A program made the translations under genes and the position numbers. A DNA stretch of 64,000 nt from assembly GCA_947446285.1 (NCBI GenBank), contig CANFGH010000004.1:12926-76925 (forward strand), in the 5' to 3' direction. Within the stretch, counting starts at the first letter, position 1, and each line of letters starts with the position of its first letter. Source of the stretch: Chloroflexota bacterium. Lineage in GTDB: Bacteria > Chloroflexota > UBA11872 > UBA12225. The notes below the pieces were generated by a model, which worked only from the letters and a program-made list of their open reading frames with translations, made no database searches and was not told the origin of the DNA. Positions 382-55,571 of the stretch are shown in pieces.

Positions 382-1761
382 CTAGGCTTCTTGCCCGAGA
401 GCCTTCACGGCGAGGGACCCGCGGGGGCGCATCAGGGTGCCCCGGTACCGGATCAGCACGAGCGATAGGAGCGTGCCTGCAACCCCGAGCATCGTGAACG
501 CGGTGACCGGGTCGGTGGCGTCTATAAGCCCCCCGACCAACGGCGTCGTCAGGCCGGAACTCTCCTGGCCGATGAAATAGTACATGCCCAGTACTGTTGA
601 ACGGCGATGGGCGGGAACCGCATCGGCGAACAGGGACTCCAGCACGGGAAGGCGGGTATTCATTGAGAGCCCGTACAGGAGGAGCACCACGATCATCCCG
701 ACCCCGTACGGAACGTAGGTCAGTGCCAGAATGAGCGGACCAACCGATGCGGTCACCGCAATCAGCACTGGTGCCCGACCAAACCGGTCTGAAAGTGCAC
801 CACCAACCGGGGCGGAAACGATCCCGATCCCGGCCAGGAGGGAAATAGACAGTCCGGCAAGGTCACTCGGGACGTGATGGTGATCGACAAGGAAAAATGG
901 GATATAGGCGAACATCGAGGCAGTCAGGAGCTGTTCGCCAAGTGCCACGAACACCAACGGGCCAATCCCACGCAACGACGCGAGTGCACTCCCCTGTGAA
1001 GCGCGTTCCTGTTCGGTTGCCGGCCGTTCGCTTGTGGCTGCCCGAGCCGTCGTGATGAGCATCATTACTCCCGCGACCAGCGGTGCCACACTCAAGGCCA
1101 TGAATGAGTAGCGCCAACTCCCTGTGTAGCGAGCAACAGTGATCGCCATCACGGGAGTTAGCAGGAACGCGAGCGAGCCACCAATCACGTGGGTGCCAAG
1201 TGCCCGGCCTCGCGCTGCCGAAACAAAGGTCGCAGACAGGTAGGTCGACGCCGGCGCATGGTAGGTCGACGCCAGGATGCCCATCAACACAAGACATCCA
1301 ACCAGCGACCAGAAATCCTGCGTGAGCGAGATGGCGATGCAGAGCAGACCCGCACCGACGAGGCCAACGGCAATGACGAGACGCTTGCTCATGTGGTCGG
1401 CAAGGGCCGAGACTGGCAACTGCGCCAACCCAAGGGCTAGCCCTTGGGCCGAAAGCAGCAAGCCCGCCTGCGTGTAATCAAGATGGAAGTCATCCCGCAA
1501 CAGCGGAAGCAGAGGTTGCAGCCCACCAGTTCCGACGTGATGCGCGAGGTGGGCAAACATGAACGTCGGCAGTACCAGCCAGGAAACGACCCGGGACGAG
1601 ACCGCAGGGACCGCAGGCTGCGCTGGAGGCTGCGCTGGAGGCTGCGCTGGAGGCTGCGCTGGAGGCCCCACCTCTGACGCCTGGGCGTCGCCCCCAACCA
1701 CCGAGTGTCTTGATGTGTCCGGGTCATCATCACTGCGATGGGATGCAGGGTCAGTCTTCAC
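382..1761 (-). CDS. MFS transporter
   Basis: 459-aa ORF with about 12 hydrophobic helices, the MFS loop motif G-x-L-S-D-R-F-GR and an acidic/Pro-rich N-terminal tail. Confidence 0.85.
   Translation of the reverse strand: MKTDPASHRSDDDPDTSRHSVVGGDAQASEVGPPAQPPAQPPAQPPAQPAVPAVSSRVVSWLVLPTFMFAHLAHHVGTGGLQPLLPLLRDDFHLDYTQAGLLLSAQGLALGLAQLPVSALADHMSKRLVIAVGLVGAGLLCIAISLTQDFWSLVGCLVLMGILASTYHAPASTYLSATFVSAARGRALGTHVIGGSLAFLLTPVMAITVARYTGSWRYSFMALSVAPLVAGVMMLITTARAATSERPATEQERASQGSALASLRGIGPLVFVALGEQLLTASMFAYIPFFLVDHHHVPSDLAGLSISLLAGIGIVSAPVGGALSDRFGRAPVLIAVTASVGPLILALTYVPYGVGMIVVLLLYGLSMNTRLPVLESLFADAVPAHRRSTVLGMYYFIGQESSGLTTPLVGGLIDATDPVTAFTMLGVAGTLLSLVLIRYRGTLMRPRGSLAVKALGQEA
1616..1663. repeat. 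Perfect 12-nt tandem repeat x4 (ggctgcgctgga), in frame, encoding (PAQP)4 in the MFS N-terminal tail
   Basis: Read directly from the sequence at 1616-1663. The minus-frame protein shows PAQPPAQPPAQPPAQP. Confidence 0.9.
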
Positions 1762-1803
1762 GGCGCGATGGTATCCGCATTACTGACCCAAGTGGCACCG
1801 TAA

Positions 1804-3318
1804 ATGACCCGGCTACAATGCGCAAGTGAGGCATCAATGACATCATCGGGGACGAGGACCGTCGTCGCGGTCATCGCGGGAACCTTCCTGATCATGTTTG
1901 CGGTGTCCCCAATTTCCATCGTCCTGCCGACGTTGGCTGCTGAACTCGGGATTGACCTCGCCGAGGCAAGCTGGATCATGACGGCCTATCTGGTGCCGCT
2001 GACAGCGTGTCTGCTGCCGTCCGGACGACTAGGCGACCAGTTCGGTCACACACGGATCTTCTTCTGGGGTCTCGTGCTTTCGACGTGCGCAGCAATCGCC
2101 GGGTCACTCGCACCACATTGGTACCTGCTGCTGATTGCCCGCGCCGTGCAAGGCGTCGGCGCGGCCCTCGTCTCCGCAAACTGTTATCCGATCATCACGG
2201 CAACGGTTGCGTCCAATCAGCGTGGTCGGGGTGATGGGATTGCGACCATGGCATCTTCCCTCGGGTCGATGGCTGGAACGGCATTGGGGCCGCTCTTTGT
2301 CTCACCGCTGACCTGGCGGTGGGCGTTCGTAACCGCGGCGGCTGCCGGATGCATCGCAATCGCCGTGGCATGGCCGACAGTTGTTTCACCAAGTCCGGCA
2401 CAGTCTGGCGCGACGCCCCGCCGTAACCAGACCGACTGGCCGGGGGCAATCCTCCTCCTGCTCACATTGATCGTGGCGTCGCTGTCACTCAACCACTTCC
2501 ATGACGGCCCGGAAACTTTTGCAGACGGGTGGCGATGGCACCTGCCGATGCACGGGGTCACCGCGGCACTATTCCTGATGTTCGTGTTGATCGAACAGCG
2601 GGTGCCGGAACCCCTAATACGGTTCAGTCAGTTCCGCAATATCCGGTTCTCGACCGCGATGGTGGCGAACGGTGTCCTCCACATGACCATGATGATGACC
2701 ATCTTCAGCATGCCATTCCTCATGCAGAGAGGTCTGGGCATGTCGGCCGTGACGACCGCTGGGCTGGTGGCAACCATGCAGGCCGTCACCGTCGCGATGA
2801 CCCTCATCGGAGGCTGGTTGTATGACCGCACCCGTTCGCCATGGCTGTGCGTCGTCGGTCTGAGTTGCGTGGCAGGAGGACTCACAATCCTTGGGCTCGA
2901 CCCAAGTGGCATGGACATCGTGACGCTTTTCATCCTGATCGTGATCATGGGCTTTGGGTCCGGGATCTTCCTCACCACGAACAACACGCGCATCATGAGC
3001 GCCCTTTCGCCGGAATACCGAGGGTTTGCGTCCGGCATGCTCGAGACGACCAGGCAGTACGGCCACACGCTCGGAGTTGCGGTCGCCACGATTGGCCTGT
3101 CCGGAGTCATCGGTGGGGCGGTGACATCCGAAACGAACCCGGCAGTCCTTGAGGGTTTCGCACTTTCAGCTGCCGTGACAGCCGCAATTACCTGGGTAGG
3201 TGTCGGTCTGGCGGCATACCCCATCTGGTCACGTACGACGCGAATCTCGGAAAGCAGTGACGCCCTTGACGCATCGCCCCTCGGTCTCGCGGTCGAAACC
3301 CGGACCACGAGGGGGTAG
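1804..3318 (+). CDS. MFS transporter, DHA2 (EmrB/QacA-like, 14-TM type)
   Basis: 504-aa ORF with the motif LPSGRLGDQFG, many TM helices and a length typical of DHA2. The start could be the internal ATG at 1837. Confidence 0.85.
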   Translation: MTRLQCASEASMTSSGTRTVVAVIAGTFLIMFAVSPISIVLPTLAAELGIDLAEASWIMTAYLVPLTACLLPSGRLGDQFGHTRIFFWGLVLSTCAAIAGSLAPHWYLLLIARAVQGVGAALVSANCYPIITATVASNQRGRGDGIATMASSLGSMAGTALGPLFVSPLTWRWAFVTAAAAGCIAIAVAWPTVVSPSPAQSGATPRRNQTDWPGAILLLLTLIVASLSLNHFHDGPETFADGWRWHLPMHGVTAALFLMFVLIEQRVPEPLIRFSQFRNIRFSTAMVANGVLHMTMMMTIFSMPFLMQRGLGMSAVTTAGLVATMQAVTVAMTLIGGWLYDRTRSPWLCVVGLSCVAGGLTILGLDPSGMDIVTLFILIVIMGFGSGIFLTTNNTRIMSALSPEYRGFASGMLETTRQYGHTLGVAVATIGLSGVIGGAVTSETNPAVLEGFALSAAVTAAITWVGVGLAAYPIWSRTTRISESSDALDASPLGLAVETRTTRG

Positions 3319-3356
3319 CCCGGCACGGTGAATACACCCACCGGAGGAGACCGGGA

Positions 3357-4700
3357 ATGACTATTCACTTCCCGGAGGTGACCCTATCCCGGCTTCATGG
3401 CCCCGCACAAACTTATGCCATAGCGGTGCGCTCATTTTCGCCAGTATCACGGAACTTCCTCGTGGCCTCATCACTTGGCGGGATCAACGCCGGCGTCTCG
3501 AGCGTCCTGTTGAACCTTTACATCCTTTCCCTCGGGAACGCAGAGGGTTATCTCGGACGTCTGCTTAGCCTTGGATCACTCGGTGCTGCGGCAGGTGCGC
3601 TCATCGGCGCCCAGATTGCCGACAAGTGGAGTTCCTGGGTCGCACTGATGCTTGGAACAGTCGTCGCCGGATCAGGTCTCCTCATCGTGCTCGTACCAGG
3701 GCTTGACCTCTTCCTGCCAGTCGGGACCTTTCTTGGAGGGCTCGGAGCGGTGACAGTCTATCTGGCCGTCCCACCGTTTCTTGCCAGCCACTCCAAACCA
3801 TCGAATCGGCCGTACTTGTTCGGGATCGCAGGTGCGAGCTATGTAGTGAGTACTGCCATCGGAAGCATCCTGGGAGGGTTCCTGCCGGCGATACTCAGGG
3901 ACGCGTTCCCAGAGACGTCTCAACCAGACATCTACCGCATATCGCTTGCGTTCGGTATCGCGTGCTCGGCAATCGGTGTTCCCTTCCTTTGGCGTGCGAG
4001 GCCAACCAGATCAGGATCGAGCGGGAACGATGACAGGGGATCGGATCAAGCGCCTGAATCGCGAATGGCAGGCATCCCAATCGCCCTCGACAAGGTTTCG
4101 TGGGCAACAGTCGTTCGCGATCCCATCGTGCGTCGCACGCTCGCCCGCTTTGTCCTGACAGATGGACTGATCCGCCTCGGGGGAAACCTGATTGTACCGT
4201 TCTTCAGTGTGTACTTCGTTCGCGAACTCGGTGCGTCGGAGGCCTGGTTCGGGACATTGCGCATTATCGAACGATCAATCGAAGTGATTGCAATGCTCGC
4301 AATCGCACCCGTCGCCGCGAGATTCGGTCCCGTGGCAACGATTGCTCTGTCGCAACTGGCCTCGGTTCCGATGCTGCTCGGGCTCGGGTTCGCACCTAGC
4401 CTTGGCTTCGCGTCAGGAATCTTCCTAATCCGTGGCACCCTGATGGAAATGACCGTTCCACTGCGCGACAACTTCATGATGGACCGCTTGCCACCGGGAT
4501 CCAGGGCGACGGTCAGCGCCGCCGTCCTGCTGTTCGGCTACGCGATCGCATTCTTCAGCGTCCGGGTTGGAGGACAGATGGTCCAATCCGGCCATCGAGA
4601 CTACACCTACATGATCGCTGGCGCACTCTACACCATTAGTGCCGTACTCTTCTTCAGTCTCTTCAGAGACGAACCGAGCGACAAAGCGCGCGTCGCCTGA
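3357..4700 (+). CDS. MFS transporter
   Basis: 447-aa ORF with 12 predicted hydrophobic helices and a central cytoplasmic loop. Confidence 0.8.
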   Translation: MTIHFPEVTLSRLHGPAQTYAIAVRSFSPVSRNFLVASSLGGINAGVSSVLLNLYILSLGNAEGYLGRLLSLGSLGAAAGALIGAQIADKWSSWVALMLGTVVAGSGLLIVLVPGLDLFLPVGTFLGGLGAVTVYLAVPPFLASHSKPSNRPYLFGIAGASYVVSTAIGSILGGFLPAILRDAFPETSQPDIYRISLAFGIACSAIGVPFLWRARPTRSGSSGNDDRGSDQAPESRMAGIPIALDKVSWATVVRDPIVRRTLARFVLTDGLIRLGGNLIVPFFSVYFVRELGASEAWFGTLRIIERSIEVIAMLAIAPVAARFGPVATIALSQLASVPMLLGLGFAPSLGFASGIFLIRGTLMEMTVPLRDNFMMDRLPPGSRATVSAAVLLFGYAIAFFSVRVGGQMVQSGHRDYTYMIAGALYTISAVLFFSLFRDEPSDKARVA

Positions 4701-12198: not shown

Positions 12199-13608
12199 TC
12201 ACGCCTGGAAGTCGAGCAGGCGCTTGGTGCCACGTGTCTCTAGGCGGTCTGCCTGTGTGATCGAACTCGAGTACGGGGTGCTGTCCTGGCCCCGCGCAAG
12301 CGTCGTGAGAACTTCGGGTGACACCTGGACCGCCCGAGTGATTGCAGCGATTTTGGACGCGAAACCACCAGGACCGCCAAGGACATTCTCAACCGCAGTT
12401 GGGTTCGTCGCGAGCGCTTCCCGAAGCTTCGTCTCGCTCAACTGCAATGCACCATTGGCTCCCGAAGCAAGCCCCAGAGATTCGAGTGACGCCTTCAACC
12501 CATCCGCCGCGCCCTGCAGCCGACTTGCAAGCCCCGGTGAGAGCAGCGAGGGGTTCGCGGCCAAATTTCCTAGAAATGCATTGAATTTGCTGGTCAGGTG
12601 ACGGGTCGCATCGACCACCGCCGCAATATCTGGTGATACCCCGACCGAAATCGTCACCGTCGATGTGGTTGGTCCCTGCAGATACAACTGAACCCGTCCA
12701 GTCGTCGATGACGAATTCGCCAAGTCCAGGTGAACAACGTTGCTCGATGACGTCTGTTGGGACCCGTTCAAGGTGTATGACGAATCACGCGCCGCGGTCG
12801 TTGTCGTGAAACCGAGGACGGTTGCGATATTCCCACCAGTGGTGAATGTGGCAGAGGTGCCGGTGGACGTATGGGTGAGCGCAAGCGTGGAAGTTCCACC
12901 CGTCGACACTGCTTGCGCCCTGACCGGTATTCCCGCAGCGTTCACCGCGGTCGCGATTGCCTGAAGCACGCCAAGATTGGATGTGACTGTAGAGAAGTCC
13001 GGAGTGATCGTCGTCGTGGTGCCACCAGTTGTGACGGTCATGCTCGTTGACCCGGTGATAGGGGACGTGTTGGTGTCCGCGTCGACCACTCCGCCGCTCG
13101 TCAGGCTCTGACCCGCGGCTGTTTGTGAGACCGTGACTGCGTACGTTGCTACCCTGGCTTGATCAGCGACTGACGCCAGAACCCCACCGCCATGTCCGGA
13201 GATCGCAACCTTGCGCGCGCTGAACACACCGCTTGGCGTGGTGCTTGCCGTGGAACCCGAGTTCGACCGATTTCCGCTCGTCCCCGCCATGCGTGACGAC
13301 GAACCAGAAACCAGTTTCGAGGCTGATGCGCCCAACTCGCGTAGCTGGTTCAAGACGTCAGGAACGACATTCTTCAGCGCAGCCGTTGCCACATTCGTGA
13401 GGTGGTCAACGGCCACCATGACTCCGTCCCCAAGGCCGAGCTGATCTGCAGTCTTGAGGACCGCTTGAGCCCCTTGGCGATCAACCAGCGAGTTCCTCAT
13501 TGTCGGTGAGGGAATGCGGTTGCCGGGGACAAACGGGTTCCCTGCACCCGCGTATCGCGGATTCCCGACGAGCGACCGACTGCTGCTCGGCTGACCGGTA
13601 GACGGCAT
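12199..13608 (-). CDS. FliD-like (flagellar cap/hook-associated protein 2-like) Thr/Ser-rich protein
   Basis: Core and C-terminal patterns resemble FliD: YAVTVSQTAAGQSLTSG, YTLNG..SSSNVV, KFNAFLGNL and GALQLSETKLREALATNPTAVENVLGG. The N-terminus is atypical. Confidence 0.5.
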   Translation of the reverse strand: MPSTGQPSSSRSLVGNPRYAGAGNPFVPGNRIPSPTMRNSLVDRQGAQAVLKTADQLGLGDGVMVAVDHLTNVATAALKNVVPDVLNQLRELGASASKLVSGSSSRMAGTSGNRSNSGSTASTTPSGVFSARKVAISGHGGGVLASVADQARVATYAVTVSQTAAGQSLTSGGVVDADTNTSPITGSTSMTVTTGGTTTTITPDFSTVTSNLGVLQAIATAVNAAGIPVRAQAVSTGGTSTLALTHTSTGTSATFTTGGNIATVLGFTTTTAARDSSYTLNGSQQTSSSNVVHLDLANSSSTTGRVQLYLQGPTTSTVTISVGVSPDIAAVVDATRHLTSKFNAFLGNLAANPSLLSPGLASRLQGAADGLKASLESLGLASGANGALQLSETKLREALATNPTAVENVLGGPGGFASKIAAITRAVQVSPEVLTTLARGQDSTPYSSSITQADRLETRGTKRLLDFQA

Positions 13609-22324: not shown

Positions 22325-22924
22325 ATGGGCCAAAAGGAAACCGGCGGCGCGGTGCTCGCCAAAAACGACGCCCCTACTGAACGGATTGCCGTTGCCGTCC
22401 CACGAGCCCTCGTGATCGACTATCTCAAGATCTTTGATGAACTTGAACGGGCAACGCACGCACAGCGCCAGTTCCACCATTCAGAGGCTTCGCGCCTCTC
22501 GCAGACACTGCTGAAGCAGCCCTTTCCAGAGCGACGGTTGGTGTCTCCAGCGCAGGTGCAACTTGTCATTGACCTGTCGGAACGGGGCCCGGGAACGATC
22601 GGAGAACTTGCGACCCGCCTGAAAGTAACACCATCTGCAATCAGCCTACTGGTTGACCGGATTGAGTCGCACGGGATAGTCGAGCGGGTACGGAGCACAC
22701 TTGACCGTCGGGTAGTGCAAGTACGTCTCACCGATGTCGCCACGCAGATCTCCGCCATCATGCTCCGTGTGGCGCGCGCTCAAATCGAAGAGTTCCTTGA
22801 GGCAACCCCTGCGGATGAGCGGGAGCCCTTCCTTAGAAACCTCACCCGGTTCGTGAAGACAATCGAACGGGTCGAGGATTTCATCCCCGATACACCACGA
22901 GTCACGACACCGGAGGCCACATGA
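22325..22924 (+). CDS. MarR-family transcriptional regulator
   Basis: Winged-helix region TIGELATRLKVTPSAISLLVDRIESHGIVERVRSTLDRRVVQVRLT. The gene lies directly upstream of the RND gene. Confidence 0.85.
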   Translation: MGQKETGGAVLAKNDAPTERIAVAVPRALVIDYLKIFDELERATHAQRQFHHSEASRLSQTLLKQPFPERRLVSPAQVQLVIDLSERGPGTIGELATRLKVTPSAISLLVDRIESHGIVERVRSTLDRRVVQVRLTDVATQISAIMLRVARAQIEEFLEATPADEREPFLRNLTRFVKTIERVEDFIPDTPRVTTPEAT

Positions 22925-23000
22925 GACGTGGCCCACCAGTCCAACCAACAAGGCTCCAGTCACGCACCATGAATTGCACACCGAAGGACGACCGTTCACA

Positions 23001-26000
23001 ATGACCAGCAAGACCACTCCAAACCAGCCAGCAAGTCACGAAGTTGAAAGTGCGCTGAATGACCCTTCCGGTGGCATTGGTGGCATCACCGCGCTGTCGA
23101 TCCGCAGGCCACTCTTGATGCTCATGGTCATCCTCTCGGTGATGATCTTTGGACTGATCGCCTACGGACGCCTAGGCGTTGACTTGTTTCCATCGGTGAA
23201 TTTCCCGGTGGTCAGTGTCAGCATCCCATATCCGGGTGCGAGCCCCGAGGTCGTTGAATCCCTTGTGACTCGACCGGTCGAGGACGCGGTGTCCGGCCTC
23301 GCAGACCTTGACACGATCAATTCGACGTCGTCAGAAGGCGTGGCGGTCGTGATCGTCACCTTCAAGGACAAGGCAGACCCTCAGACGGTCGCCATTGAGG
23401 TGGAAAAGCGGGTCAACGGAATTCGTGGCCAGCTACCCAATGACATCATTGCCCCCACAATCCTCAAATTCGACTTCACTGCCGCCCCCATCATCACTCT
23501 CGGACTGACGGGCGCCAACGTCACTCCTGCGCAGGCTTTCCGGATTGCAGATGAATTGGTGCGTCCGAAGCTGGAGACCACAAACGGTGTTGGTCAGGTC
23601 TCTATCTTTGGAGGCCAGCAGCGGGAAGTTCAGGTCAAGGTTGATCCAAATCGCCTTCGTGCCTACAACCTGACCCTCGCTCAGGTCTCCCAGGCACTTG
23701 GATCAGAAAACATCGACGCACCCGGTGGTCGCGTCGACGACGGCTCCCGGAACCTCAACATCCGCCTCGATGCAAGATTCCGCTCGGTCGATCAGATCAG
23801 GGATACGGTCGTACAGGCTTTGCCTACAGGCGGCACCATCCGGGTGCGTGACCTTGCTGAGGTGATCGACGGATACAAGGAACAGACCTTCCTGGCCCGC
23901 GTCAATGGGAGCCCCGGCGTCGGTATTTCCGTCTCAAAGCAATCGTCCTCAAACGTGACCCAAACAGCCGCCAACGTGCGGGCAACCCTGGCAAAAATAC
24001 GGACGACCCTCCCTGAGGGCGTCCAACTCATCGGTATTCAGGACCAGTCCGAATTCATCCAGACTTCCCTGGCTGGTGTTCAGCGAACCCTGCTGGAAGC
24101 GAACATCCTTACCGGTCTTGTCCTCCTTGCATTTCTTCATTCGTGGAGGAGCACACTGATCGTCCTGTTGGCGATCCCGACCTCGCTCATCGCCACGTTC
24201 GCCTTCATGTATTTGCAGGGGTTTACATTAAACTTCCTGACAACTCTTGCCTTGACGCTCACGGTCGGCATCCTCGTCGACGACAGTATCGTCGTGCTGG
24301 AAAACATCTTCCAGTTCCTCAAGCGCGGTGACTCCCCTCGAGTTGCCGCCGTACGGGGTCGCGCGGAAATTGGTCTCGCGGCCATCGCGATCACCTTGGT
24401 GGACGTCGTCGTCTTCGCTCCGGTAGGCCTTCTTTCGGGCCAGATCGGGCAGTTCTTCCGTCAGTTCGGGTTCACCGTTGTCGCCGCGACCCTCGCATCG
24501 CTCGCGGTCAGTTTCACACTCACTCCCTTGCTTGCGTCCCGCTGGCTTACATCGGAAGACGAACACGGAACCGGACCGCTCGCAATCTTCGGTCGCTGGT
24601 GGGACCGAGGCTTCGATCGACTCGAAGATCGGTACCGCGGGATCCTTCGCTGGTCACTCAGCCACCGTTGGGTCATCATGTTGGTGGCTGTCCTGTCATT
24701 TGCCGGGAGCATTGCCCTGCCGGCTGCAGGTCTGGTGAAGACCAGCTTCTTCCCGAACCAGGATCAGGGCACGTTCAATATCATTCTCGAACTCCCCCCG
24801 GGATCCACCCTTGACGCTACCGCGTCTGCGGTTGCTCAAATGGAAGCAGGGATCACCAAACTTCCCGAGTTCAAGGCCATCTATTCGGTCATCGGCCAAG
24901 GGGAAGGCGGAACGTCCCGCCAGTCTCGATTTGCAAATCTCCAAGTCATCCTCGTCGGGAAGCGCGAACGCACCAAATCAGTCGAACAGCTGGCACGGGA
25001 AGTCAAGGCTTTCGGTGAAGGTTTCCCCGGCCTGAAGGTTCGCGCAGGTGTTCCAGGGCCTGGAGGAGGCGCCGCGCAGCCGGTTAGCCTTCGTGTGTAT
25101 GGCGACGATCTCAAGGTCCTCAACGATCTGGCCGATAAGATCATCGGCAAGTTCCGCGAGACTGGTGGTCTCGTCGACATCACCAACAGCGGTCAAGCGG
25201 GTGCCCCGGAATACGTTGTCACGCTTGACCGGGCAAAGGCCGCTGATCTCGGTCTGTCCGCTGGCCAAGTGGCCCAGACGCTGAGGACCGCGTACGCCGG
25301 TTCTGTGGCCACAACCCTGCGTCGCGACCAGACTTCCGGAACCGCGAGTGGAGTTGACGTTCGTGTCCAGCTGACGGACGACACTCGAAAGGACATCACC
25401 CTTCTCCAGCAGGTGCCCCTCATTAGCCCTGCAAAGGGTGGCCAAGTTTACCTCGGCCAAATTGCGACCGTCGTTCCAGCTGCCGGTCCATCGCAGATCC
25501 AGCGCACCGACCGGCAGCGCGCGCTCACGATCGGTGCCAACCTCGGTGCAGGCCTGATCCTGAGTGATGTGACGAAACGGGTCAATGAAGCAATCGCTTC
25601 CGTTGAAGTTCCAGCAGGCTACCGGATCAAGATCGGCGGACAGGCTGACCAGCAGAACAACACGTTTACTGAATTCGGCAACGCGCTTCTCCTCTCGATC
25701 GCCCTTGTCTACATCCTCCTTGTAGCCCTCTACGAGTCTCTCCTCTATCCGCTGATCGTCATCGCGGCGCTGCCACTTGCCCTTGTCGGGGCAATGGGAG
25801 GGCTGGCCCTCGGACAAGAGACCCTGAATACCTTTTCGCTTATCGGGATCATCGCCCTCGTCGGCCTCGTTGGCAAGAACTCGATCCTTGTGATCGACTA
25901 CACCAACACTCTCCGGCGGGAGCAAGGGATGGGTAGATTTGACGCGCTCATGGAAGCGGGGCCACGACGGCTTCGTCCGATCCTCATGACCTCATCAGCA

Positions 26001-28637
26001 CTGATCTTCGCGCAGATCCCGCTGATGCTCAAGATCGAAGACGGCGCGGAGGTCCAGGCACCGATTGGCTGGGTCATTTTCGGCGGGATGATCAGTTCCA
26101 CCATTCTCGCCCTCGTCTTCGTCCCCACGCTGTACACACTCGTCGACGACTTCCAGAACTGGATTTTGCGGGGGTTCAAGCGCGACCGGTCGCGTGGACC
26201 TAAGGAGAAGGATATGAATGGATCGGGTTCCTCCACATCGGGCAACAACGACGAGATCGTTGTGCGTCCGGCCACGGAGAAGGTTGGCGTCGGGGCCACC
26301 GTCTCGCGCATCGCCACCACTGGCACCAACCTCGCAGTTGCAATCGTTGCCGTCGGAGGACTGTTCCTGAGTGCTTGCGGAACCCAGCCAGACACCGCCA
26401 AGGCTGCCCCGGTTGCGCCACCACTCAATGTGGCGGTCGTCGACGCTCGCAAGGAAACGGTTCGTGCGTCCGTGACCAGCAGTGGCGCGGTTGAGGCAAC
26501 GGATCAGGTTTCAGTCAGTACAAAGGTTTCGGGACGGGTCACCCGCCTCGACGCCGAAGTCGGCCAGAACGTGAAGGCCGGGCAACTGATCGCCGAACTT
26601 GATCGCGTGATCATCGAAGCCCAAGTTGCCCAAGCCGAAGCCGGACTGATGGGTGCCCAGGTCCGCTTGGGCCAACTCGAACGGGGACCACGCGCTGACG
26701 ATGTCGCCGTGGCCGCCGCCCAGCGCACCGCTGCCGAGAAGCAAGCCGACGCCGTCGCATCGCAAGCGGCTGTCGCAGAACAGTCCCTGACCACCTTTGA
26801 CGCCCAGATTGATGCCTCCACCAGCCAGGCCAACGCCTCCAAGGCGTCGGCACAGGCAGCAAAGACGCAGTCCCAAGGCGCACGTGCCCAGGCAAGCGGC
26901 GCGCGCAACCAGGCCAATGCCGCTCGCGCTCAGGCAAACGCCGCCAAAGTCCGCCTTGACCAGCTGAAGAACCCGCGTCCCGAAGACCTCGCTCTTCTTG
27001 AGAGCCAGGTCGAGACTGCCAAGATCCGACTTTCCCAGGCGTCCCAGCGTGACGAGGAAATCCGGGTTGTCCAGGCACAGGTCGAAGCCGCCCGCCTCGC
27101 CCTTCAGCAGGCGCAGGATCCGGCCCGCCCGGAACAGCTCCGGGCCGCTCAGGCACAGCTCGATGTCGCCAAGGCGACGCTGTCGAACCTCACCGAGGCT
27201 CCAGTCCGCGCTGAAGACCTTGAATCGATCCGTCTGGCGTATGAGAGCGCCGACAAGGCGTACGAAGCATCCGGTGACAGCCTGCGAATCGCCGAGAAGG
27301 CATATGACGCGGCCAAGCGCAGCCGGTCCACGTACGGCCCAGCCGTCGTGTCCGACTCGGTTCTCGCCCAGGCCGAAGGTGGTGTCGTCGCAGCTCAGGC
27401 AAATATCGAGCAAGCACGGATCCGCCGTGACACCGCCCGCGAGTCCTACAACAAGGCCCAAGCCGGCGCGACAGGTTGGGACCTCCGCAAGACCCAACTC
27501 GCCGTCGAAGCCGCGCAGGCCACCGTTGACCTGACCCGCAATCCTGACCCGGTCCGCGTCAAGAATGCCCAACTCACCCTCGAACAGGCTCAACTCAACC
27601 TCGAACTCCGGCAGCGCCAGATTGGCTTCGACCTCCAGACCGCCAAGGAAGGCCTGAAGGTTGCCGAGAACCAGCGCGCCAAGGTCGTCAACCCCGGAGA
27701 GTTCGACATCAAGTCCCTTGAAGAGGCTTCAAAGGCCGCTGAGGCCCAGGCACTCGGTGCGGAAGCTTCGGCCCAAGCCGCCGAAGCCAGCGCAGACGCC
27801 TCTGCAATCCAGGCAGAGGCTGCGGCTTCACAGGCCGGCGCCGCGGCCGCTCAGGTCAACGCTCTCTTGTCGCAGCGCACTGGGGCCGAATTCCAGATAA
27901 CAGGTGCCCGCAGTCAAGCCGACGGGGCGCGCGCAACCGCCGACCAGGCGGCTAGTGCGTACAAGTTGCGTGCGAACCCTTACACAGAGGACGACCTCAA
28001 GACCGCTCGTGTCGGTGTGGCTCAGGCCGAGGCGGCCGTCCGCCTCGGCCAAGCCAACCTTGCCGAAACCTACGTCTATGCGCCCATCGATGGCGTGATT
28101 ACCGCCCGGAACACCTCCATCGGATCACTGCTCAATCCGGGCCAACCAGTCGTCACCATCATTTCATCTGCCATCGAAATCACGGTCCCGGTTGAGGAAG
28201 CGAAGGTCGGTTCCGTCAAAGAAGGCCAAGCCGTCACGATGACCTCTCCCGCCCTTCCCGGAGTTTCGCTCGAAGGGAAGATCAACGCTGTCACTCCATC
28301 GGGTGACACCCGTAACCGTTCGTTCACCGCCCGCGTCCGCCTGGTGAAGCCCGACAGCCGACTGCGTCCGGGCATGTTCGTCAACACATCCATTGCCACC
28401 GAAGAGCGAGCGAACGCCATCGTGGTGAACCGCGAGGCCATCATCCTGACCAACGGCAAGAGCCAACTCTTCATAGTTGGAGCTGGCAACAAGGTTGAGA
28501 GCAGGGCCATCAAGGTGGGAATCTCCACGGGCAGCCTCGTGGAGGTTCTCGAAGGCGTGAGCGCCGGCGACAAGGTCATTGTCACGGGGGTCGAGGATCT
28601 CCGGGACGGACAGGTGGTCACCCCGGTATCGAAGTAG
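23001..28637 (+). CDS. RND (AcrB/HAE1-like) efflux permease fused in frame to a TM/lipobox segment and a periplasmic adaptor (MFP) with a giant coiled coil
   Basis: There is no in-frame stop from 23001 to 28637. The N-terminal ~1,070 aa are typical RND (SIRRPLLMLMV..FPSVNFPVVSV..). The segment ..LFLSAC (Cys codon 26376-26378) follows. Lipoyl, hairpin, beta-barrel and MP domains of an adaptor come next (VSGRVTRLDAEVGQNVKAGQLIAELD ... YVYAPIDGVI ...). The TTG at 22974 in the track is a less likely start than the ATG at 23001. Confidence 0.8.
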   Translation: MTSKTTPNQPASHEVESALNDPSGGIGGITALSIRRPLLMLMVILSVMIFGLIAYGRLGVDLFPSVNFPVVSVSIPYPGASPEVVESLVTRPVEDAVSGLADLDTINSTSSEGVAVVIVTFKDKADPQTVAIEVEKRVNGIRGQLPNDIIAPTILKFDFTAAPIITLGLTGANVTPAQAFRIADELVRPKLETTNGVGQVSIFGGQQREVQVKVDPNRLRAYNLTLAQVSQALGSENIDAPGGRVDDGSRNLNIRLDARFRSVDQIRDTVVQALPTGGTIRVRDLAEVIDGYKEQTFLARVNGSPGVGISVSKQSSSNVTQTAANVRATLAKIRTTLPEGVQLIGIQDQSEFIQTSLAGVQRTLLEANILTGLVLLAFLHSWRSTLIVLLAIPTSLIATFAFMYLQGFTLNFLTTLALTLTVGILVDDSIVVLENIFQFLKRGDSPRVAAVRGRAEIGLAAIAITLVDVVVFAPVGLLSGQIGQFFRQFGFTVVAATLASLAVSFTLTPLLASRWLTSEDEHGTGPLAIFGRWWDRGFDRLEDRYRGILRWSLSHRWVIMLVAVLSFAGSIALPAAGLVKTSFFPNQDQGTFNIILELPPGSTLDATASAVAQMEAGITKLPEFKAIYSVIGQGEGGTSRQSRFANLQVILVGKRERTKSVEQLAREVKAFGEGFPGLKVRAGVPGPGGGAAQPVSLRVYGDDLKVLNDLADKIIGKFRETGGLVDITNSGQAGAPEYVVTLDRAKAADLGLSAGQVAQTLRTAYAGSVATTLRRDQTSGTASGVDVRVQLTDDTRKDITLLQQVPLISPAKGGQVYLGQIATVVPAAGPSQIQRTDRQRALTIGANLGAGLILSDVTKRVNEAIASVEVPAGYRIKIGGQADQQNNTFTEFGNALLLSIALVYILLVALYESLLYPLIVIAALPLALVGAMGGLALGQETLNTFSLIGIIALVGLVGKNSILVIDYTNTLRREQGMGRFDALMEAGPRRLRPILMTSSALIFAQIPLMLKIEDGAEVQAPIGWVIFGGMISSTILALVFVPTLYTLVDDFQNWILRGFKRDRSRGPKEKDMNGSGSSTSGNNDEIVVRPATEKVGVGATVSRIATTGTNLAVAIVAVGGLFLSACGTQPDTAKAAPVAPPLNVAVVDARKETVRASVTSSGAVEATDQVSVSTKVSGRVTRLDAEVGQNVKAGQLIAELDRVIIEAQVAQAEAGLMGAQVRLGQLERGPRADDVAVAAAQRTAAEKQADAVASQAAVAEQSLTTFDAQIDASTSQANASKASAQAAKTQSQGARAQASGARNQANAARAQANAAKVRLDQLKNPRPEDLALLESQVETAKIRLSQASQRDEEIRVVQAQVEAARLALQQAQDPARPEQLRAAQAQLDVAKATLSNLTEAPVRAEDLESIRLAYESADKAYEASGDSLRIAEKAYDAAKRSRSTYGPAVVSDSVLAQAEGGVVAAQANIEQARIRRDTARESYNKAQAGATGWDLRKTQLAVEAAQATVDLTRNPDPVRVKNAQLTLEQAQLNLELRQRQIGFDLQTAKEGLKVAENQRAKVVNPGEFDIKSLEEASKAAEAQALGAEASAQAAEASADASAIQAEAAASQAGAAAAQVNALLSQRTGAEFQITGARSQADGARATADQAASAYKLRANPYTEDDLKTARVGVAQAEAAVRLGQANLAETYVYAPIDGVITARNTSIGSLLNPGQPVVTIISSAIEITVPVEEAKVGSVKEGQAVTMTSPALPGVSLEGKINAVTPSGDTRNRSFTARVRLVKPDSRLRPGMFVNTSIATEERANAIVVNREAIILTNGKSQLFIVGAGNKVESRAIKVGISTGSLVEVLEGVSAGDKVIVTGVEDLRDGQVVTPVSK

Positions 28638-33882: not shown

Positions 33883-35082
33883 CTACTGCGCGGGCGCGAT
33901 AGCCCGCACTGTCGCGACACGCCAGTTCACCGTCACCACCCACGGGGTGACAACGAGGGCAAGGCACCCGAACGCAATGAACGGTGCAACGGTCGCCGCC
34001 CCAAAGACCTCGGCCAACTGACCGCTCCCAACCTCGCCCGCCACGACGCCAAGCGAGTACGCCGCGTAGAAGACGCCGTACGCCATGCCTCGTTCCGCAG
34101 GGGAGGAGTGGTCAGCAATGTACGACGTGACTGCCGGGAACAGCAGCCCGAAGCCGCAGCCGAAAAGTGCCATCGCACCGTAGACCCCCGCAGTGGTGGC
34201 GGTCACCGCCAATCCAAGCAAGCTGACACCTATCAACGACAATCCACCAGCCAGTGGAAGAAGCCGTCCAAACCTGTTCACCAACCATGGCGACGGTCTT
34301 GCGAAAAGCACTAGCGACACAAGCGCATACACGCTGAACGCAGTACCGCGAACGCTCGCGGATGCCCCACGCGATTCGAGTAACAGGGGCAAGTGAACAA
34401 CCAGTGTGCCTATGCCAGCAGTCCATGCAAGACATGCGACGTTAGCGACGATCAGTTGGGGGCGGCTCAGGATTGCCCCAAGTGACACCTTCGAGGCCCC
34501 AGCGACCGGATCATTCGGGTCCGCCGACACCTCAACGTTCCTGCCAAGGAAAGCCACGAGTGCACTTGCTGCGAGCATCAGCACGGCAACCGCCTGGAAA
34601 ACCGCAACCGACCCGAACACTGTCCCAGCGATGCCTGCGACCGCCGGTCCGATCACGGCGGCAATCGCGATGAACGCACCCGCAGTACCCATCGCCTGTG
34701 CGCGACGGGCAGGAACTACGCTGTCACTCAGCAACGTGAAGGCACCTGGCGAAAGGACCGCCTGCCCAAGCCCATGCAAGGCGCGTACTGCCCCAAACTG
34801 CCAGGGTTCGGACACCACGCCGTAGAGTGCCAGTGCAATGGCAGAGGCTAGTAACCCTCCAACAAGGGTTCGCTGCCGGCCAATTCCAATCAGAACGAAC
34901 CCGGCTGCAAGGTTCCCAATGAGGTTGGCCGCATCGTACGTGGCAACGGTGACCGCAGCGACCAAAGGATCCGCGCCAAGTTGCCGGGCGAACGGTGCCA
35001 CGATCGGGAACTGGCAAAAAAGGTCAAAAAAGGCGACAAAGACCACCAGCCGTGCGACACCAGATCCAGACATTTCCGGCAA
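33883..35082 (-). CDS. MFS transporter
   Basis: 399 aa with 12 hydrophobic helices. Confidence 0.85.
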   Translation of the reverse strand: MPEMSGSGVARLVVFVAFFDLFCQFPIVAPFARQLGADPLVAAVTVATYDAANLIGNLAAGFVLIGIGRQRTLVGGLLASAIALALYGVVSEPWQFGAVRALHGLGQAVLSPGAFTLLSDSVVPARRAQAMGTAGAFIAIAAVIGPAVAGIAGTVFGSVAVFQAVAVLMLAASALVAFLGRNVEVSADPNDPVAGASKVSLGAILSRPQLIVANVACLAWTAGIGTLVVHLPLLLESRGASASVRGTAFSVYALVSLVLFARPSPWLVNRFGRLLPLAGGLSLIGVSLLGLAVTATTAGVYGAMALFGCGFGLLFPAVTSYIADHSSPAERGMAYGVFYAAYSLGVVAGEVGSGQLAEVFGAATVAPFIAFGCLALVVTPWVVTVNWRVATVRAIAPAQ

Positions 35083-54302: not shown

Positions 54303-55571
54303 TCATCGTAGCAAACCTGCCCGTCGACCCGCGCGATCACTCATGAAAAACGTTCCGCACGCGACCGCCATCAGGACTGACGCGATGACAAAGACTGGCG
54401 ACCACCCGATGTTCTCGGCAACATAGCCAAGCGCGGGCGCCGCCACCACCGGTCCAACCATCGACGCCGCGTTGTACACTGCAATCGCGGTACCGCCTCG
54501 CTTGGGAAGCAAGTTCTGGGCGTGGACGATCCCGAATCCAAACGTCGCCGTAACGACGATCGCGTAGAGGACCTCGATGGCGAGGAATGGTGCGAATGTC
54601 GATGTGAACGCGATGGCACCAAAGTAGAAGATGCCAGCCGCATTGCCGATAAACAGGAACGGCACCACCCCGTAACGGCGCACCACTGACGCCGCCAACA
54701 ACGAGATCGGTATCTCGTACACCGGTTCAATGCCGAAGACGATGCCAACCGATTCAGTGTCAACTTTGACGACATCTCGGAGATACAAGGGCAGCATCGT
54801 CATTCGTGCCACTGAAGCGGCGCCAGTACATATCGTGGTGAGCAGGTACCACGCCATTGGTGCCCGGATGAGGTCGTGCCAAACCGACTTGGCCACGACC
54901 CCGTCAACTTCCACGACTGGCGCAATGTTCGTGAATGGAGCATCACGCACACCCAAAGCGAGGACCGCGAACGACAGGAATTGCAGCACGGCAGTCGTGA
55001 GAAACAGCCCATCAAAACCAACCATGGCAACGACGCGTCCCGCGGCGAATGAGCCGATCAGCCAGCCGATGGTGAACCCAAGCCGGACGATGTTCGTAAT
55101 CTCGGCCCCGCGCTCGTCTTTCCGATGCCGAAACCAGTCCCCAAGGATTGCGAAGAACAGGGTAAACATGGCCACGCTGATGGCCGCATAGAGCAACGTG
55201 CCGATGATGAAGTTTTCGGTCCAGGCAATCGCGATGCGCAGCGGGATCGCAAGGCCGAATGCGACCACCAGCCATGGCACACGCCTCCGCGTCCGGTCTG
55301 TAACCACACCGTAGCTCAGGCCGAATGCGGCCGTCGCAAGTGATGTCACCAGCGAAATCGTTCCAACCTCTACAGGACCAACGCCAAGGCGTTCGGTTGC
55401 CCAAAGTGGCATGAACGGCATCTGGGATCCCAACGCAACTCCCTGGATGATGAGAATGATGAAGATTGACCGGAAGACCGGATCAGTCATCACCGCTTCG
55501 ATCGCACCACCGGACAGCAACCGCGAAGCCCACCCGGGCCTCACACCTTGGCTCCTCGACGCTCCCGTCAC
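54303..55571 (-). CDS. MFS transporter
   Basis: 422 aa with 12 TM helices. The GTG start overlaps the stop of the upstream CCA-enzyme gene (GTGA). Confidence 0.85.
   Translation of the reverse strand: MTGASRSQGVRPGWASRLLSGGAIEAVMTDPVFRSIFIILIIQGVALGSQMPFMPLWATERLGVGPVEVGTISLVTSLATAAFGLSYGVVTDRTRRRVPWLVVAFGLAIPLRIAIAWTENFIIGTLLYAAISVAMFTLFFAILGDWFRHRKDERGAEITNIVRLGFTIGWLIGSFAAGRVVAMVGFDGLFLTTAVLQFLSFAVLALGVRDAPFTNIAPVVEVDGVVAKSVWHDLIRAPMAWYLLTTICTGAASVARMTMLPLYLRDVVKVDTESVGIVFGIEPVYEIPISLLAASVVRRYGVVPFLFIGNAAGIFYFGAIAFTSTFAPFLAIEVLYAIVVTATFGFGIVHAQNLLPKRGGTAIAVYNAASMVGPVVAAPALGYVAENIGWSPVFVIASVLMAVACGTFFMSDRAGRRAGLLR

What the first reader, a model, noticed from the sequence alone, without database searches (positions are those of the whole stretch)
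26600..28070. Adaptor coiled coil of about 490 aa built from roughly seven reiterated hairpin-turn modules
About 1.47 kb of Ala/Gln/Glu/Arg-rich heptad-like sequence lies between the two lipoyl half-motifs (..GQLIAELD and YVYAPIDGVI). Well-studied adaptors have hairpins of roughly 60-130 aa. By eye I count about seven copies of a turn-like module:
- GPRADDVAVAAAQ
- NPRPEDLALLESQ
- DPARPEQLRAAQAQ
- APVRAEDLESIRLA
- NPDPVRVKNAQLT
- NPGEFDIKSLEEA
- NPYTEDDLKTARVG
Each is followed by long helices. If it is a single hairpin, it would project several tens of nm, far beyond a normal periplasm. If it is serial hairpins, it would form a novel cage or tube. It may substitute for a missing TolC-like duct or span a thick wall or sheath.
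Basis: partly seen in the sequence, partly recalled or inferred. Interest (0 to 1): 0.6.

Follow-up and report, generated by a model that had tools for sequence, protein, structure and literature searches.

The report
Giant coiled-coil arm on efflux adaptor
A drug-efflux pump of a freshwater Chloroflexota bacterium is fused to an adaptor protein whose helical arm is about three times longer than any studied one, long enough (about 36 nm) to reach across the wide cell wall of a bacterium that has no outer membrane.

Summary
Window 26604-28070 encodes 489 residues of all-helical, Ala/Gln-rich heptad sequence. It is inserted between the two lipoyl half-domains of an RND-type membrane-fusion (adaptor) protein. 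All seven turn motifs are present.

The "serial hairpins / cage" reading is not supported. I find ten breaks, not seven, in five mirror-image pairs around one true tip (G1455-P1456). Pair positions sum to 2905-2907. Among relatives, the long proximal segments of the two arms are always equal in length and differ by whole heptads: 67/67, 74/74, 88/88, 95/95. This marks a single antiparallel two-stranded coiled coil of about 244 residues per arm, roughly 36 nm if extended.

AlphaFold2 predicts helices with 2-4-residue breaks. The nearest PDB folds to the distal part are elongated hairpins.

The protein is not unique. Chloroflexota metagenomes hold many adaptors with 400-527-residue hairpins, paired with RND or MFS pumps. 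None appears to be characterised. Here the adaptor is also fused in frame to its RND pump, and the fusion is conserved in relatives.

Most likely function (inferred, not shown): an envelope-spanning exit duct or strut in a monoderm lacking TolC. Verdict: new variant of a known kind, moderately interesting.

The parts
22325..22924 (+). MarR-family regulator gene directly upstream of the pump gene
   Evidence: Pfam MarR E=2.9e-12. A MarR gene also precedes the long-hairpin adaptor P0086 in L007.
22974..28637 (+). Single ORF of 1887 aa: an RND pump fused in frame to the adaptor
   Evidence: ORF list. ACR_tran covers aa 39-1057, E=3e-266, and HlyD domains lie at the C-terminus. The same fusion is open in L001 (1895 aa), L003 (1094 codons open upstream), P0004 and P0109, and P0121 (1854 aa).
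23088..26144 (+). RND (AcrB/MdtBC-like) transporter domain, aa 39-1057
   Evidence: PF00873, 886 bits, profile positions 2-1020 of 1021. NF033617, 798 bits.
26202..26216 (+). Internal Shine-Dalgarno-like AAGGAG, a 6-nt spacer, then ATG (M1081) at the start of the adaptor part
   Evidence: Read directly from the sequence. L004 shows a similar GAGGAGG-acggt-ATG. Use as a start codon is inferred, not shown.
26331..26378 (+). Hydrophobic anchor helix ending in the lipobox-like LFLSAC (C1135)
   Evidence: Read from the translation. A Cys at this position is conserved in most RND-linked homologs in alignment A1.
26508..26603 (+). N-terminal half of the lipoyl domain (aa 1179-1210, ends GQLIAELD)
   Evidence: PF13533 Biotin_lipoyl_2, aa 1179-1210.
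26604..27335 (+). Ascending arm of the hairpin, aa 1211-1454. Helices of 27, 92, 21, 21, 22 and 42 aa are separated by breaks at 1238 GPR, 1333 NPRP, 1358 SQRD, 1382 DPARP and 1409 APVR.
   Evidence: Motif positions. AF2 helices and breaks. Heptad a/d occupancy.
26694..26969 (+). Proximal ascending Ala/Gln heptad rod (aa 1241-1332, 13 heptads in one register). It contains 21-nt periodic DNA repeats at 26826-26941.
   Evidence: Single register with 85% a/d hydrophobic occupancy, z=5.8. Repeat family D1 with 21-nt spacing. Its length varies in steps of 7 aa among relatives.
27336..27353 (+). Hairpin tip loop (aa 1455-1460, GPAVVS)
   Evidence: AF2 loop at adaptor residues 375-380. It is the centre of the mirror symmetry, 2906/2 = 1453. 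The tip region is least conserved (0.47) and has no RLS motif.
27354..28070 (+). Descending arm of the hairpin, aa 1461-1699. Breaks lie at 1498 GATG, 1523 NPDP, 1548 QIGF, 1573 NPGE and 1668 NPYTE, mirroring those of the ascending arm.
   Evidence: Pair sums 2906, 2906, 2905, 2907. Module alignment: +2 hydrophobic 10/10, +12 Ala 10/10. AF2.
27702..27974 (+). Proximal descending Ala/Gln heptad rod (aa 1577-1667), partner of 26694-26969
   Evidence: Single heptad register, z=4.8. Its length equals that of the ascending partner in every relative with both arms.
28071..28634 (+). C-terminal lipoyl half, beta-barrel and membrane-proximal domain of the adaptor (aa 1700-1887)
   Evidence: HlyD_D23 and HlyD_3. 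TIGR01730 RND_mfp, 186 bits against a cutoff of 94.9, profile positions to 321 of 322. Foldseek hits to AcrA, MacA, MexA and BesA.

Best explanation
The region encodes the alpha-helical hairpin domain of an RND-type periplasmic adaptor (membrane fusion protein) from a freshwater Chloroflexota lineage. The adaptor is fused to its own RND pump.

Shown:
- The 489 residues form one antiparallel, two-stranded coiled-coil hairpin of about 244 residues per arm, roughly 36 nm if extended.
- The hairpin has a single tip at G1455-P1456.
- Each arm is cut into segments by five short helix-capping breaks of the form [G/N]-P-x-x-[D/E]-[D/E]-[L/I/V].
- The breaks face each other in mirror pairs.
- The distal half consists of 25-residue units (three heptads plus a 4-residue break).
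- The proximal half consists of two unbroken 13-heptad Ala/Gln rods. These grow and shrink by whole heptads, simultaneously in both arms.

Inferred:
- As in MacA, AcrA and EmrA, six adaptors would pack their hairpins side by side into a 12-helix tube on top of the RND trimer.
- The organism has no outer membrane and no TolC. The tube itself would therefore carry substrates from the pump through the wide wall zone to the outside. Cryo-ET of another Chloroflexota (Tepidiforma) shows about 40 nm between membrane and S-layer.
- The hairpin length would be tuned to envelope thickness by heptad indels.
For: Identity as an adaptor:
- A split lipoyl domain, beta-barrel and membrane-proximal domain flank the insert.
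- The AF2 model matches AcrA, MacA, MexA, BesA and EmrA.
- It is fused to ACR_tran.

Single hairpin:
- Break pairs 1238/1668, 1333/1573, 1382/1523 and 1409/1498 sum to 2906, 2906, 2905 and 2907. The chance of this is about 6e-7.
- The only other proline is at the predicted tip.
- AF2 places the only long loop at residues 1455-1460.
- Family-wide, mirrored proline clusters number 331 observed against 82 expected in 115 proteins.

Paired heptad indels:
- The proximal segments measure 95/95 (window, L001), 88/88 (L004, P0121), 74/74 (P0004) and 67/67 (P0002, P0003).
- 21-nt periodic DNA repeats lie in that segment.

Coiled-coil character:
- a/d occupancy is 83-100% against 20-37% elsewhere, with z up to 5.8.

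Extended rather than compact:
- AF2 breaks are 2-4 residues long.
- One 47-residue helix runs uninterrupted past a node.
- pTM is 0.38-0.41 at pLDDT 79-81.
- The nearest PDB folds of the distal fragment are long hairpin rods: chemoreceptor 2ch7 (TMq 0.42), SH3BP5, and SMC/MukB arms.

Envelope fit:
- Tepidiforma has a 7 nm membrane, a 40 nm periplasm and an S-layer (PMC10284905).
- Chloroflexota lack BAM and LPS genes (PMC13319060, PMC7332563).
- No OEP/TolC was found among 20 window ORFs scanned.
- The tip lacks the RLS motif and is the least conserved part.
- Long hairpins occur with RND and with MFS pumps in this phylum. The length therefore tracks lineage, not pump type.
Against: - No coordinates, oligomer model or experiment are available. 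The tube and the extended geometry are inferred.
- The Foldseek matches of the distal fragment are weak (E >= 1e-3).
- AF2 confidence is low (pLDDT 45-65) in the middle of both Ala/Gln rods.
- The envelope of this particular uncultured lineage is unknown. The 40 nm figure comes from a different class.
- Some Chloroflexota show an outer-membrane-like layer by cryo-ET (PMC7332563). An unknown outer partner therefore cannot be excluded.
- Only 64 kb of the genome was examined for a TolC-like gene.
- Paired Pro-containing breaks could act as fold-back points, as in CusB.
Confidence: 0.55

Rival explanations
1. Folded-back hairpin. The paired Pro/Gly breaks are hinges at which the long hairpin folds on itself into a compact multi-helix bundle, as CusB folds its hairpin into a short bundle. 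The domain would then be a bulky cap or chamber just above the pump, not a 36 nm reach.
For: - Breaks occur on both arms at the same level, which is what a fold-back needs.
- Distal units are of nearly equal length (25, 24, 27 | 25, 25, 25).
- CusB is a precedent (PMC4446572).
- The distal arms are as conserved as the beta domains (0.64), as expected for a packed domain.
Against: - AF2 gives breaks of only 2-4 residues, and a continuous 47-residue descending helix opposite two ascending units.
- pTM of 0.41 at pLDDT 81 is typical of an elongated model, not a compact one.
- Foldseek neighbours are all elongated hairpins, with no bundles.
- The 92-residue proximal rods have no breaks at all, and alone give about 14 nm.
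Confidence: 0.15
2. Docking to an unknown outer component. The hairpin is extended but does not end freely. Its tip engages an as yet unidentified channel or pore in an outer layer (S-layer or the outer-membrane-like layer seen in some Chloroflexota). This would be a true tripartite system with a non-TolC partner.
For: - Cryo-ET shows outer-membrane-like or additional layers in some Chloroflexota (PMC7332563, PMC13319060).
- In all studied systems the hairpin tip is the docking site.
Against: - The tip is the least conserved part of the hairpin among close relatives, and it lacks the RLS motif.
- The tip region is gapped and variable across the family.
- No candidate partner gene lies in the operon here or in L007, L008 or L010.
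Confidence: 0.15
3. Strut or tether rather than duct. The long coiled coil does not form a conduit. It anchors or spaces the pump relative to the wall or S-layer, or acts as a ruler or scaffold. Substrates would simply be released into the wall zone.
For: - Reviews note that the role of hairpins in Gram-positive adaptors is unexplained (PMC4446572).
- Several homologs carry Gly/Gln/Pro-rich C-terminal tails that could interact with the wall.
Against: - All structurally known adaptor hairpins assemble into tubes.
- Conservation of the distal arms suggests lateral packing surfaces.
- There is no recognisable wall-binding domain.
Confidence: 0.1
4. Disordered low-complexity spacer. The Ala/Gln-rich sequence is compositional drift in a GC-rich genome, without defined structure.
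For: - AF2 pLDDT falls below 50 in the middle of both Ala/Gln rods.
- The sequence is 25% Ala.
- Long spurious antisense ORFs cross the region.
Against: - A single heptad register is kept over 13 heptads in both rods (z 5.8 and 4.8).
- Indels are always multiples of 7 and always matched in both arms.
- The positions of the breaks are mirror-symmetric.
Confidence: 0.03

Closest known systems
RND periplasmic adaptors AcrA / MexA (TIGR01730 RND_mfp)
   Same: - Split lipoyl domain, beta-barrel and membrane-proximal domain.
- Lipobox-type anchor.
- Paired with an AcrB-like RND pump.
- Best Foldseek matches.
   Different: - The hairpin is 489 residues, against about 60-80. AcrA is 58 A and MexA 47 A (PMC4158417).
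- No RLS tip motif.
- No TolC-like gene nearby.
- Fused to the pump.
- Gene order is pump then adaptor.
EmrA (A. aeolicus, 4TKO) and HlyD: the known 'long hairpin' adaptors
   Same: - A long antiparallel coiled coil with heptad discontinuities at matching levels in both helices.
- Extension by heptad insertion (PMC4158417, PMC4446572).
   Different: - EmrA's coil is 168 residues and 127 A; here 489 residues and about 360 A.
- EmrA lacks the membrane-proximal domain and serves MFS pumps. This one has the domain and serves an RND pump.
- The NCBIfam EmrA and HlyD models score far below their cutoffs (67.7 against 390.8; 56.4 against 208.65).
YbhG-type hairpin (Pfam PF25881 HH_YBHG; NCBIfam PRK03598)
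   Same: - The break motif G/N-x-R-x-E-[ED]-[ILV], about 28 and 32 residues from the lipoyl halves, is the motif I recall from E. coli YbhG (from memory, not tested).
- PRK03598 is among the better NCBIfam hits (E=7e-29).
- Homologs carry weak or faint PF25881 hits.
   Different: - YbhG-type proteins have one break per arm; here the module is reiterated five times per arm.
- The score of 101 bits is far below the equivalog cutoff of 393.
- YbhG works with an ABC transporter in a diderm.
Gram-positive adaptors (B. subtilis YknX, S. pneumoniae Spr0693)
   Same: - An adaptor with a prominent hairpin in an organism without an outer membrane.
- The hairpin's role is debated (PMC4446572).
- Homologs carry YknX_C and Beta-barrel_YknX Pfam hits.
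   Different: - Those pair with MacB-like ABC transporters and have hairpins of ordinary length.
- This one pairs with, and is fused to, an RND pump, and its hairpin is several-fold longer.
CusB (hairpin folded back into a helical bundle)
   Same: An RND adaptor whose helical domain departs from the simple hairpin. The breaks allow fold-back (PMC4446572).
   Different: CusB's helical domain is short. Here AF2 and Foldseek point to an elongated hairpin.

Membership tests
Periplasmic adaptor / membrane fusion protein (HlyD superfamily; TIGR01730 RND_mfp) | Lipoyl domain split by the helical insert | tested here: met
   Biotin_lipoyl_2 at aa 1179-1210. HlyD_D23/HlyD_3 resume at 1673/1701.
Periplasmic adaptor / membrane fusion protein (HlyD superfamily; TIGR01730 RND_mfp) | Beta-barrel and membrane-proximal domains; score above the curated cutoff | tested here: met
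   TIGR01730, 186.1 bits against a cutoff of 94.9, profile positions to 321 of 322. Foldseek E down to 9e-20 to AcrA, MacA, MexA and BesA.
Periplasmic adaptor / membrane fusion protein (HlyD superfamily; TIGR01730 RND_mfp) | Genetic linkage to an inner-membrane transporter | tested here: met
   Same ORF as ACR_tran. In relatives it is adjacent to RND genes (L008, L010).
Periplasmic adaptor / membrane fusion protein (HlyD superfamily; TIGR01730 RND_mfp) | Antiparallel coiled-coil hairpin whose length changes by heptads in both helices | tested here: met
   Paired indels 67/67, 74/74, 88/88 and 95/95. Heptad occupancy.
Periplasmic adaptor / membrane fusion protein (HlyD superfamily; TIGR01730 RND_mfp) | Hexameric assembly into a funnel or tube | not testable with these tools
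   Only monomer predictions without coordinates were available.
TolC-dependent tripartite efflux pump | Conserved RLS (R-x3-L-x6-S) motif at the hairpin tip for docking the outer-membrane factor (the motif definition is from my own knowledge of the AcrA/MacA literature) | tested here: not met
   No R...L......S anywhere in aa 1211-1699. The tip is the least conserved segment.
TolC-dependent tripartite efflux pump | An outer-membrane factor (Pfam OEP) gene in the operon or genome | tested here: inconclusive
   None among 20 window ORFs scanned, nor in L007, L008 or L010. The whole genome was not available. The phylum is reported to lack BAM and LPS (PMC13319060).
EmrA/EmrK and HlyD type-I-secretion long-hairpin adaptors | Score above the NCBIfam cutoffs; no membrane-proximal domain (EmrA); MFS or ABC partner | tested here: not met
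   TIGR00998, 67.7 against 390.8. TIGR01843, 56.4 against 208.65. The membrane-proximal domain is present and the partner is RND.
YbhG-type adaptor (PRK03598 / PF25881 HH_YBHG) | Equivalog-level score; hairpin with one G-x-R-x-E-E-I break per arm | tested here: not met
   101.1 bits against a cutoff of 393. There are five breaks per arm, not one. The motif type is shared, so the hairpin works like an extended YbhG-type hairpin without the protein being a YbhG orthologue.
CusB-like folded-back helical domain | Hairpin folded into a compact bundle | tested here: inconclusive
   AF2 secondary structure and Foldseek neighbours favour an elongated hairpin. No coordinates were seen, however.

The most novel reading that the evidence does not exclude
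Pump and adaptor alone form a two-component (here even single-polypeptide) trans-envelope machine. Six giant hairpins would build a TolC-independent alpha-helical tube about 35-40 nm long through the peptidoglycan zone to the surface layer of monoderm Chloroflexota. The length of the tube would be set, heptad by heptad, to the thickness of the envelope. Adaptor hairpin length could then be read from genomes as a molecular ruler of envelope architecture in uncultured lineages.
Probability: 0.35. Interest if true: 0.8.

Novelty: new variant of a known kind. Interest (0 to 1): 0.55.

Why it matters
Adaptor hairpins are understood as couplers to TolC-like ducts in diderm bacteria. Why monoderms keep them is an acknowledged open point (PMC4446572). 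The envelope architecture of Chloroflexota is also a long-running debate (PMC7332563, PMC13319060).

A large, uncharacterised class of adaptors with hairpins three times longer than the longest solved one gives a concrete, testable hypothesis for both questions. The relevant facts are:
- The hairpin length matches the roughly 40 nm wall zone seen by cryo-ET in one member of the phylum.
- The length evolves by paired heptad steps.
- In this lineage the adaptor is fused to the pump.

It also offers a natural, tunable protein nanotube or rod design. The natural RND-adaptor fusion bears on the pump:adaptor stoichiometry question.

Tried and rejected
- **Kyte-Doolittle Fourier analysis at period 3.5.** It was insensitive in these Ala-rich helices; most segments were not significant. 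I replaced it with an a/d occupancy test.
- **Free search for the symmetry centre of proline clusters.** My tie-breaking biased it towards the midpoint. I redid it with the centre fixed at the insert midpoint.
- **Local Pfam copy.** It does not report the newer MFP sub-domain families (PF25881 etc.) for the window protein, even at E <= 1. Their names came from precomputed hits on homologs.
- **Literature searches.** Searches for long Chloroflexota adaptors, monoderm RND adaptors and natural RND-adaptor fusions found nothing specific. The large Chem Rev review is held only in part.
- **Tandem repeat finder on the DNA.** It found only one weak 21-nt array. The protein modules are therefore old and diverged, not recent duplications. 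The exception is the 21-nt periodicity in the Ala/Gln rod.
- **PDB sequence search.** It gave only ordinary adaptors aligned outside the hairpin.
- **Geometry.** The hairpin length could not be measured directly, because the structure tool returns no coordinates. I used secondary structure, pTM and Foldseek neighbours of a distal fragment as indirect evidence.
- **Rejected explanations.** Serial independent hairpins, a disordered spacer, and a sequencing-error origin of the fusion. The fusion is present in at least four independent assemblies and at 30-73% identity.

Full report
**What is at the coordinates**

The finding lies inside one ORF, 22974-28637 (+), of 1887 aa.
- Residues 39-1057 are a full-length AcrB-type RND transporter (PF00873, E = 3e-266).
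- A cytoplasmic linker of about 60 residues follows, then a hydrophobic helix ending in a lipobox-like LFLSAC (C1135).
- The C-terminal 750 residues are a periplasmic adaptor (membrane fusion protein). Biotin_lipoyl_2 lies at 1179-1210, and HlyD_D23/HlyD_3 begin at 1673/1701. TIGR01730 RND_mfp scores 186 bits against a cutoff of 94.9.
- GQLIAELD ends at aa 1210 (nt 26603) and YVYAPIDGVI begins at aa 1700 (nt 28071). The insert is 489 aa (nt 26604-28070).
- Counted over the 507 aa that include both motifs, 124 residues are Ala and 53 are Gln.

**Anatomy of the insert**

The eleven prolines of the insert fall in seven break motifs plus one site at G1455-P1456. Degenerate proline-free copies are recognisable in the family alignment at 1358 SQRDEE, 1498 GATGWDL and 1548 QIGFDL. 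With these there are ten breaks.

When aligned, the ten breaks share several features:
- an acidic residue at +1 (9 of 10);
- a hydrophobic residue at +2 (10 of 10);
- an Ala at +12 (10 of 10);
- hydrophobic residues at +9 and +16.

Each unit is thus a helix N-cap followed by three heptads.

The breaks form mirror pairs. Positions 1238/1668, 1333/1573, 1382/1523 and 1409/1498 sum to 2906, 2906, 2905 and 2907. This centres the structure at residue 1453, next to the G1455-P1456 site. Four random breaks would match mirrored positions this well with a probability of about 6e-7.

The distal half of each arm has a 25-residue period: 1333, 1358, 1382, 1409 on one arm and 1498, 1523, 1548, 1573 on the other. 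The proximal half of each arm is an unbroken Ala/Gln rod of about 92 residues.

**Coiled-coil character**

In every helical segment a single heptad register places Ala or a hydrophobic residue at 83-100% of a/d positions, against 20-37% at other positions. The two long rods keep one register over 13 heptads. They score z = 5.8 and 4.8 against shuffles, with 0 and 1 of 5000 shuffles reaching the observed value.

**Decisive comparative evidence**

In relatives of 45-97% identity, I measured the proximal segment between the first two breaks of the ascending arm, and its partner on the descending arm.

| Sequence | Ascending / descending (aa) |
|---|---|
| window, L001 | 95 / 95 |
| L004, P0121 | 88 / 88 |
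| P0004 | 74 / 74 |
| P0002, P0003 | 67 / 67 |
| P0005, P0001 (truncated) | descending only: 81 and 88 |

Every difference is a multiple of seven, and the two arms always change together. That is the signature of one antiparallel two-stranded coiled coil, and it rules out independent serial hairpins. The reviews describe adaptor hairpins as extended or shortened by heptad indels in both helices (PMC4446572).

At the DNA level the ascending rod carries 21-nt periodic repeats at 26826-26941. This suggests growth by duplication of heptad-sized units.

Across 115 family members, proline clusters mirrored about the insert midpoint number 331, against 82 expected.

**Structure prediction**

AF2 on the 807-aa adaptor with 33 aligned sequences gave pLDDT 79.1 and pTM 0.38.
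- It predicts helix from 1211 to 1697.
- The only long loop is at 1455-1460.
- Breaks of 2-4 residues fall at the motif positions.
- Confidence is low only in the middle of the two Ala/Gln rods.
- The model's best PDB matches are AcrA, MacA, MexA, BesA and EmrA.

A second model covered the distal 266 residues and gave pLDDT 81 and pTM 0.41.
- It shows the same pattern, including a continuous 47-residue descending helix opposite two ascending units.
- Its nearest PDB folds are elongated antiparallel hairpin rods: chemoreceptor 2ch7 (TMq 0.42), SH3BP5, and SMC and MukB arms. No compact bundles appear.
- All of these matches have weak E-values of 1e-3 or worse.

At 1.485 A per residue, the 244-residue arm gives about 36 nm.

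**How unusual it is**

Literature values come from PMC4158417. The A. aeolicus EmrA hairpin, described as exceptionally long, has 168 residues and measures 127 A. The others are AcrA 58 A, MexA 47 A, ZneB 52 A and MacA 67 A. The window's hairpin has three times the residues of EmrA's.

It is not a singleton, however.
- Among the top 120 homologs the insert length clusters at about 225-300, 400-475 and 500-527 residues.
- Every homolog that carries a taxon name from its source is Chloroflexota, except one from Armatimonadetes.
- Long-hairpin adaptors sit downstream of separate RND genes (L008, L010).
- One lies in a MarR-adaptor-adaptor-MFS operon (L007). Length therefore follows lineage, not pump type.
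- A hairpin-only search of 1.84 billion representatives found only 57 hits at E <= 1e-3. They include P0121, a complete 1854-aa fusion.
- The nearest genomes are freshwater Chloroflexota MAGs: UBA2235, the Lake Biwa TK10 bin, and a bin labelled Thermoflexus.
- I found no paper describing these adaptors.

**Function (inferred)**

Several points bear on the role of the hairpin.
- Chloroflexota are regarded as monoderm and lack BAM and LPS genes (PMC13319060, PMC7332563).
- Cryo-ET of Tepidiforma shows a 7 nm membrane, a 40 nm periplasm containing about 20 nm of peptidoglycan, and an S-layer (PMC10284905).
- From my own knowledge of AcrAB-TolC structures, a roughly 36 nm hairpin would start on top of the pump's periplasmic domain, several nm above the membrane. 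It would then span such a gap.
- No OEP/TolC gene is among 20 window ORFs scanned, nor in the related loci.
- The hairpin lacks the RLS tip motif (motif definition from my own knowledge).
- The tip is the least conserved part (0.47 identity). The distal arms are as conserved as the beta domains (0.64).

I therefore favour an adaptor-only exit duct or reach across the wall zone, with length tuned by heptad indels (confidence about 0.55). The rivals are:
- fold-back into a compact bundle (0.15);
- docking to an unknown outer-layer partner (0.15);
- a non-conducting strut (0.10);
- a disordered spacer (0.03, effectively refuted).

**The fusion**

The in-frame RND-adaptor fusion recurs in several sequences:
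- L001;
- L003, with 1094 open codons upstream;
- P0004 and P0109, at 45% and 30% identity;
- P0121.

It is therefore not an assembly error. An AAGGAG-N6-ATG sits at the start of the adaptor part, and L004 has a similar signal. Both a fused and a free adaptor might therefore be made. I speculate that this would give the usual six adaptors per RND trimer.

**Verdict**

- The feature is a new variant of a known kind: an adaptor hairpin extended to an extreme, in a monoderm phylum, fused to its pump.
- The class is widespread but uncharacterised.
- Interest is 0.55.

Noticed in passing
window 26100-26400 (junction inside ORF 22974-28637): The RND pump and the adaptor are one reading frame with no stop codon. 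Yet a strong Shine-Dalgarno-like AAGGAG plus ATG (26202-26216) and a lipobox LFLSAC (C1135) sit at the start of the adaptor part. The fusion is conserved in L001, L003, P0004, P0109 and P0121. I found no report of natural RND-adaptor fusions. Fused and free adaptor may both be made; a 3 fused + 3 free stoichiometry is speculation.
   Followed up: partly
L008 4056-10514; L010 2688-8328: In relatives with separate genes the order is RND pump then adaptor. This is the reverse of the usual acrA-acrB order, and it is the arrangement that allows the fusion seen in the window.
   Followed up: partly
L007 7537-13003: The longest hairpin found (P0086, 527-residue insert) lies in an operon of MarR, long adaptor, a second short adaptor (303 aa) and an MFS transporter. 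Giant hairpins are therefore not tied to RND pumps.
   Followed up: partly
window 26826-26941: 21-nt (one heptad) periodic DNA repeats lie inside the ascending Ala/Gln rod, encoding A-[SN]-[GA]-A-R-[AN]-Q-like heptads. One related copy lies in the descending rod at 27831-27862. This is a likely substrate for the heptad-step length changes.
   Followed up: partly
alignment A1, columns 440-490 (P0012, P0013, P0015, P0016, P0018, P0021, P0053, P0077): One subgroup of long-hairpin homologs has a Ser/Thr/Arg-rich tip insert flanked by two conserved cysteines (…CGR… and …QSC…). This may be a disulfide staple across the hairpin tip.
   Followed up: no
alignment A1, columns 1000-1127 (P0006-P0011, P0053 and others): Many homologs end in Gly/Gln/Pro/Ala-rich low-complexity tails of 30-120 residues after the membrane-proximal domain. 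The window protein has none. Their role is unknown.
   Followed up: no
window 26511-27593 (-), 26611-27156 (-), 26998-27534 (+): Long ORFs of 178-360 aa run on the opposite strand and in other frames across the coil region. They look like by-products of the GC-rich, Ala-codon-rich repetitive sequence rather than genes.
   Followed up: no
window 12199-13608 (-): An ORF of 469 aa matches the flagellar cap FliD C-terminus (E = 2e-11). Flagellar motility is reported as rare in Chloroflexota (PMC10284905).
   Followed up: no
window 382-4700, 33883-35082, 54303-55571: Five separate MFS transporter genes lie in 64 kb, three of them clustered at 382-4700.
   Followed up: no
L001 (CAMDTO010000070.1): The 96%-identical contig is titled 'Thermoflexus hugenholtzii JAD2'. 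It is a metagenome bin, and its closest relatives here are freshwater TK10/UBA2235 bins. The species label looks doubtful.
   Followed up: no
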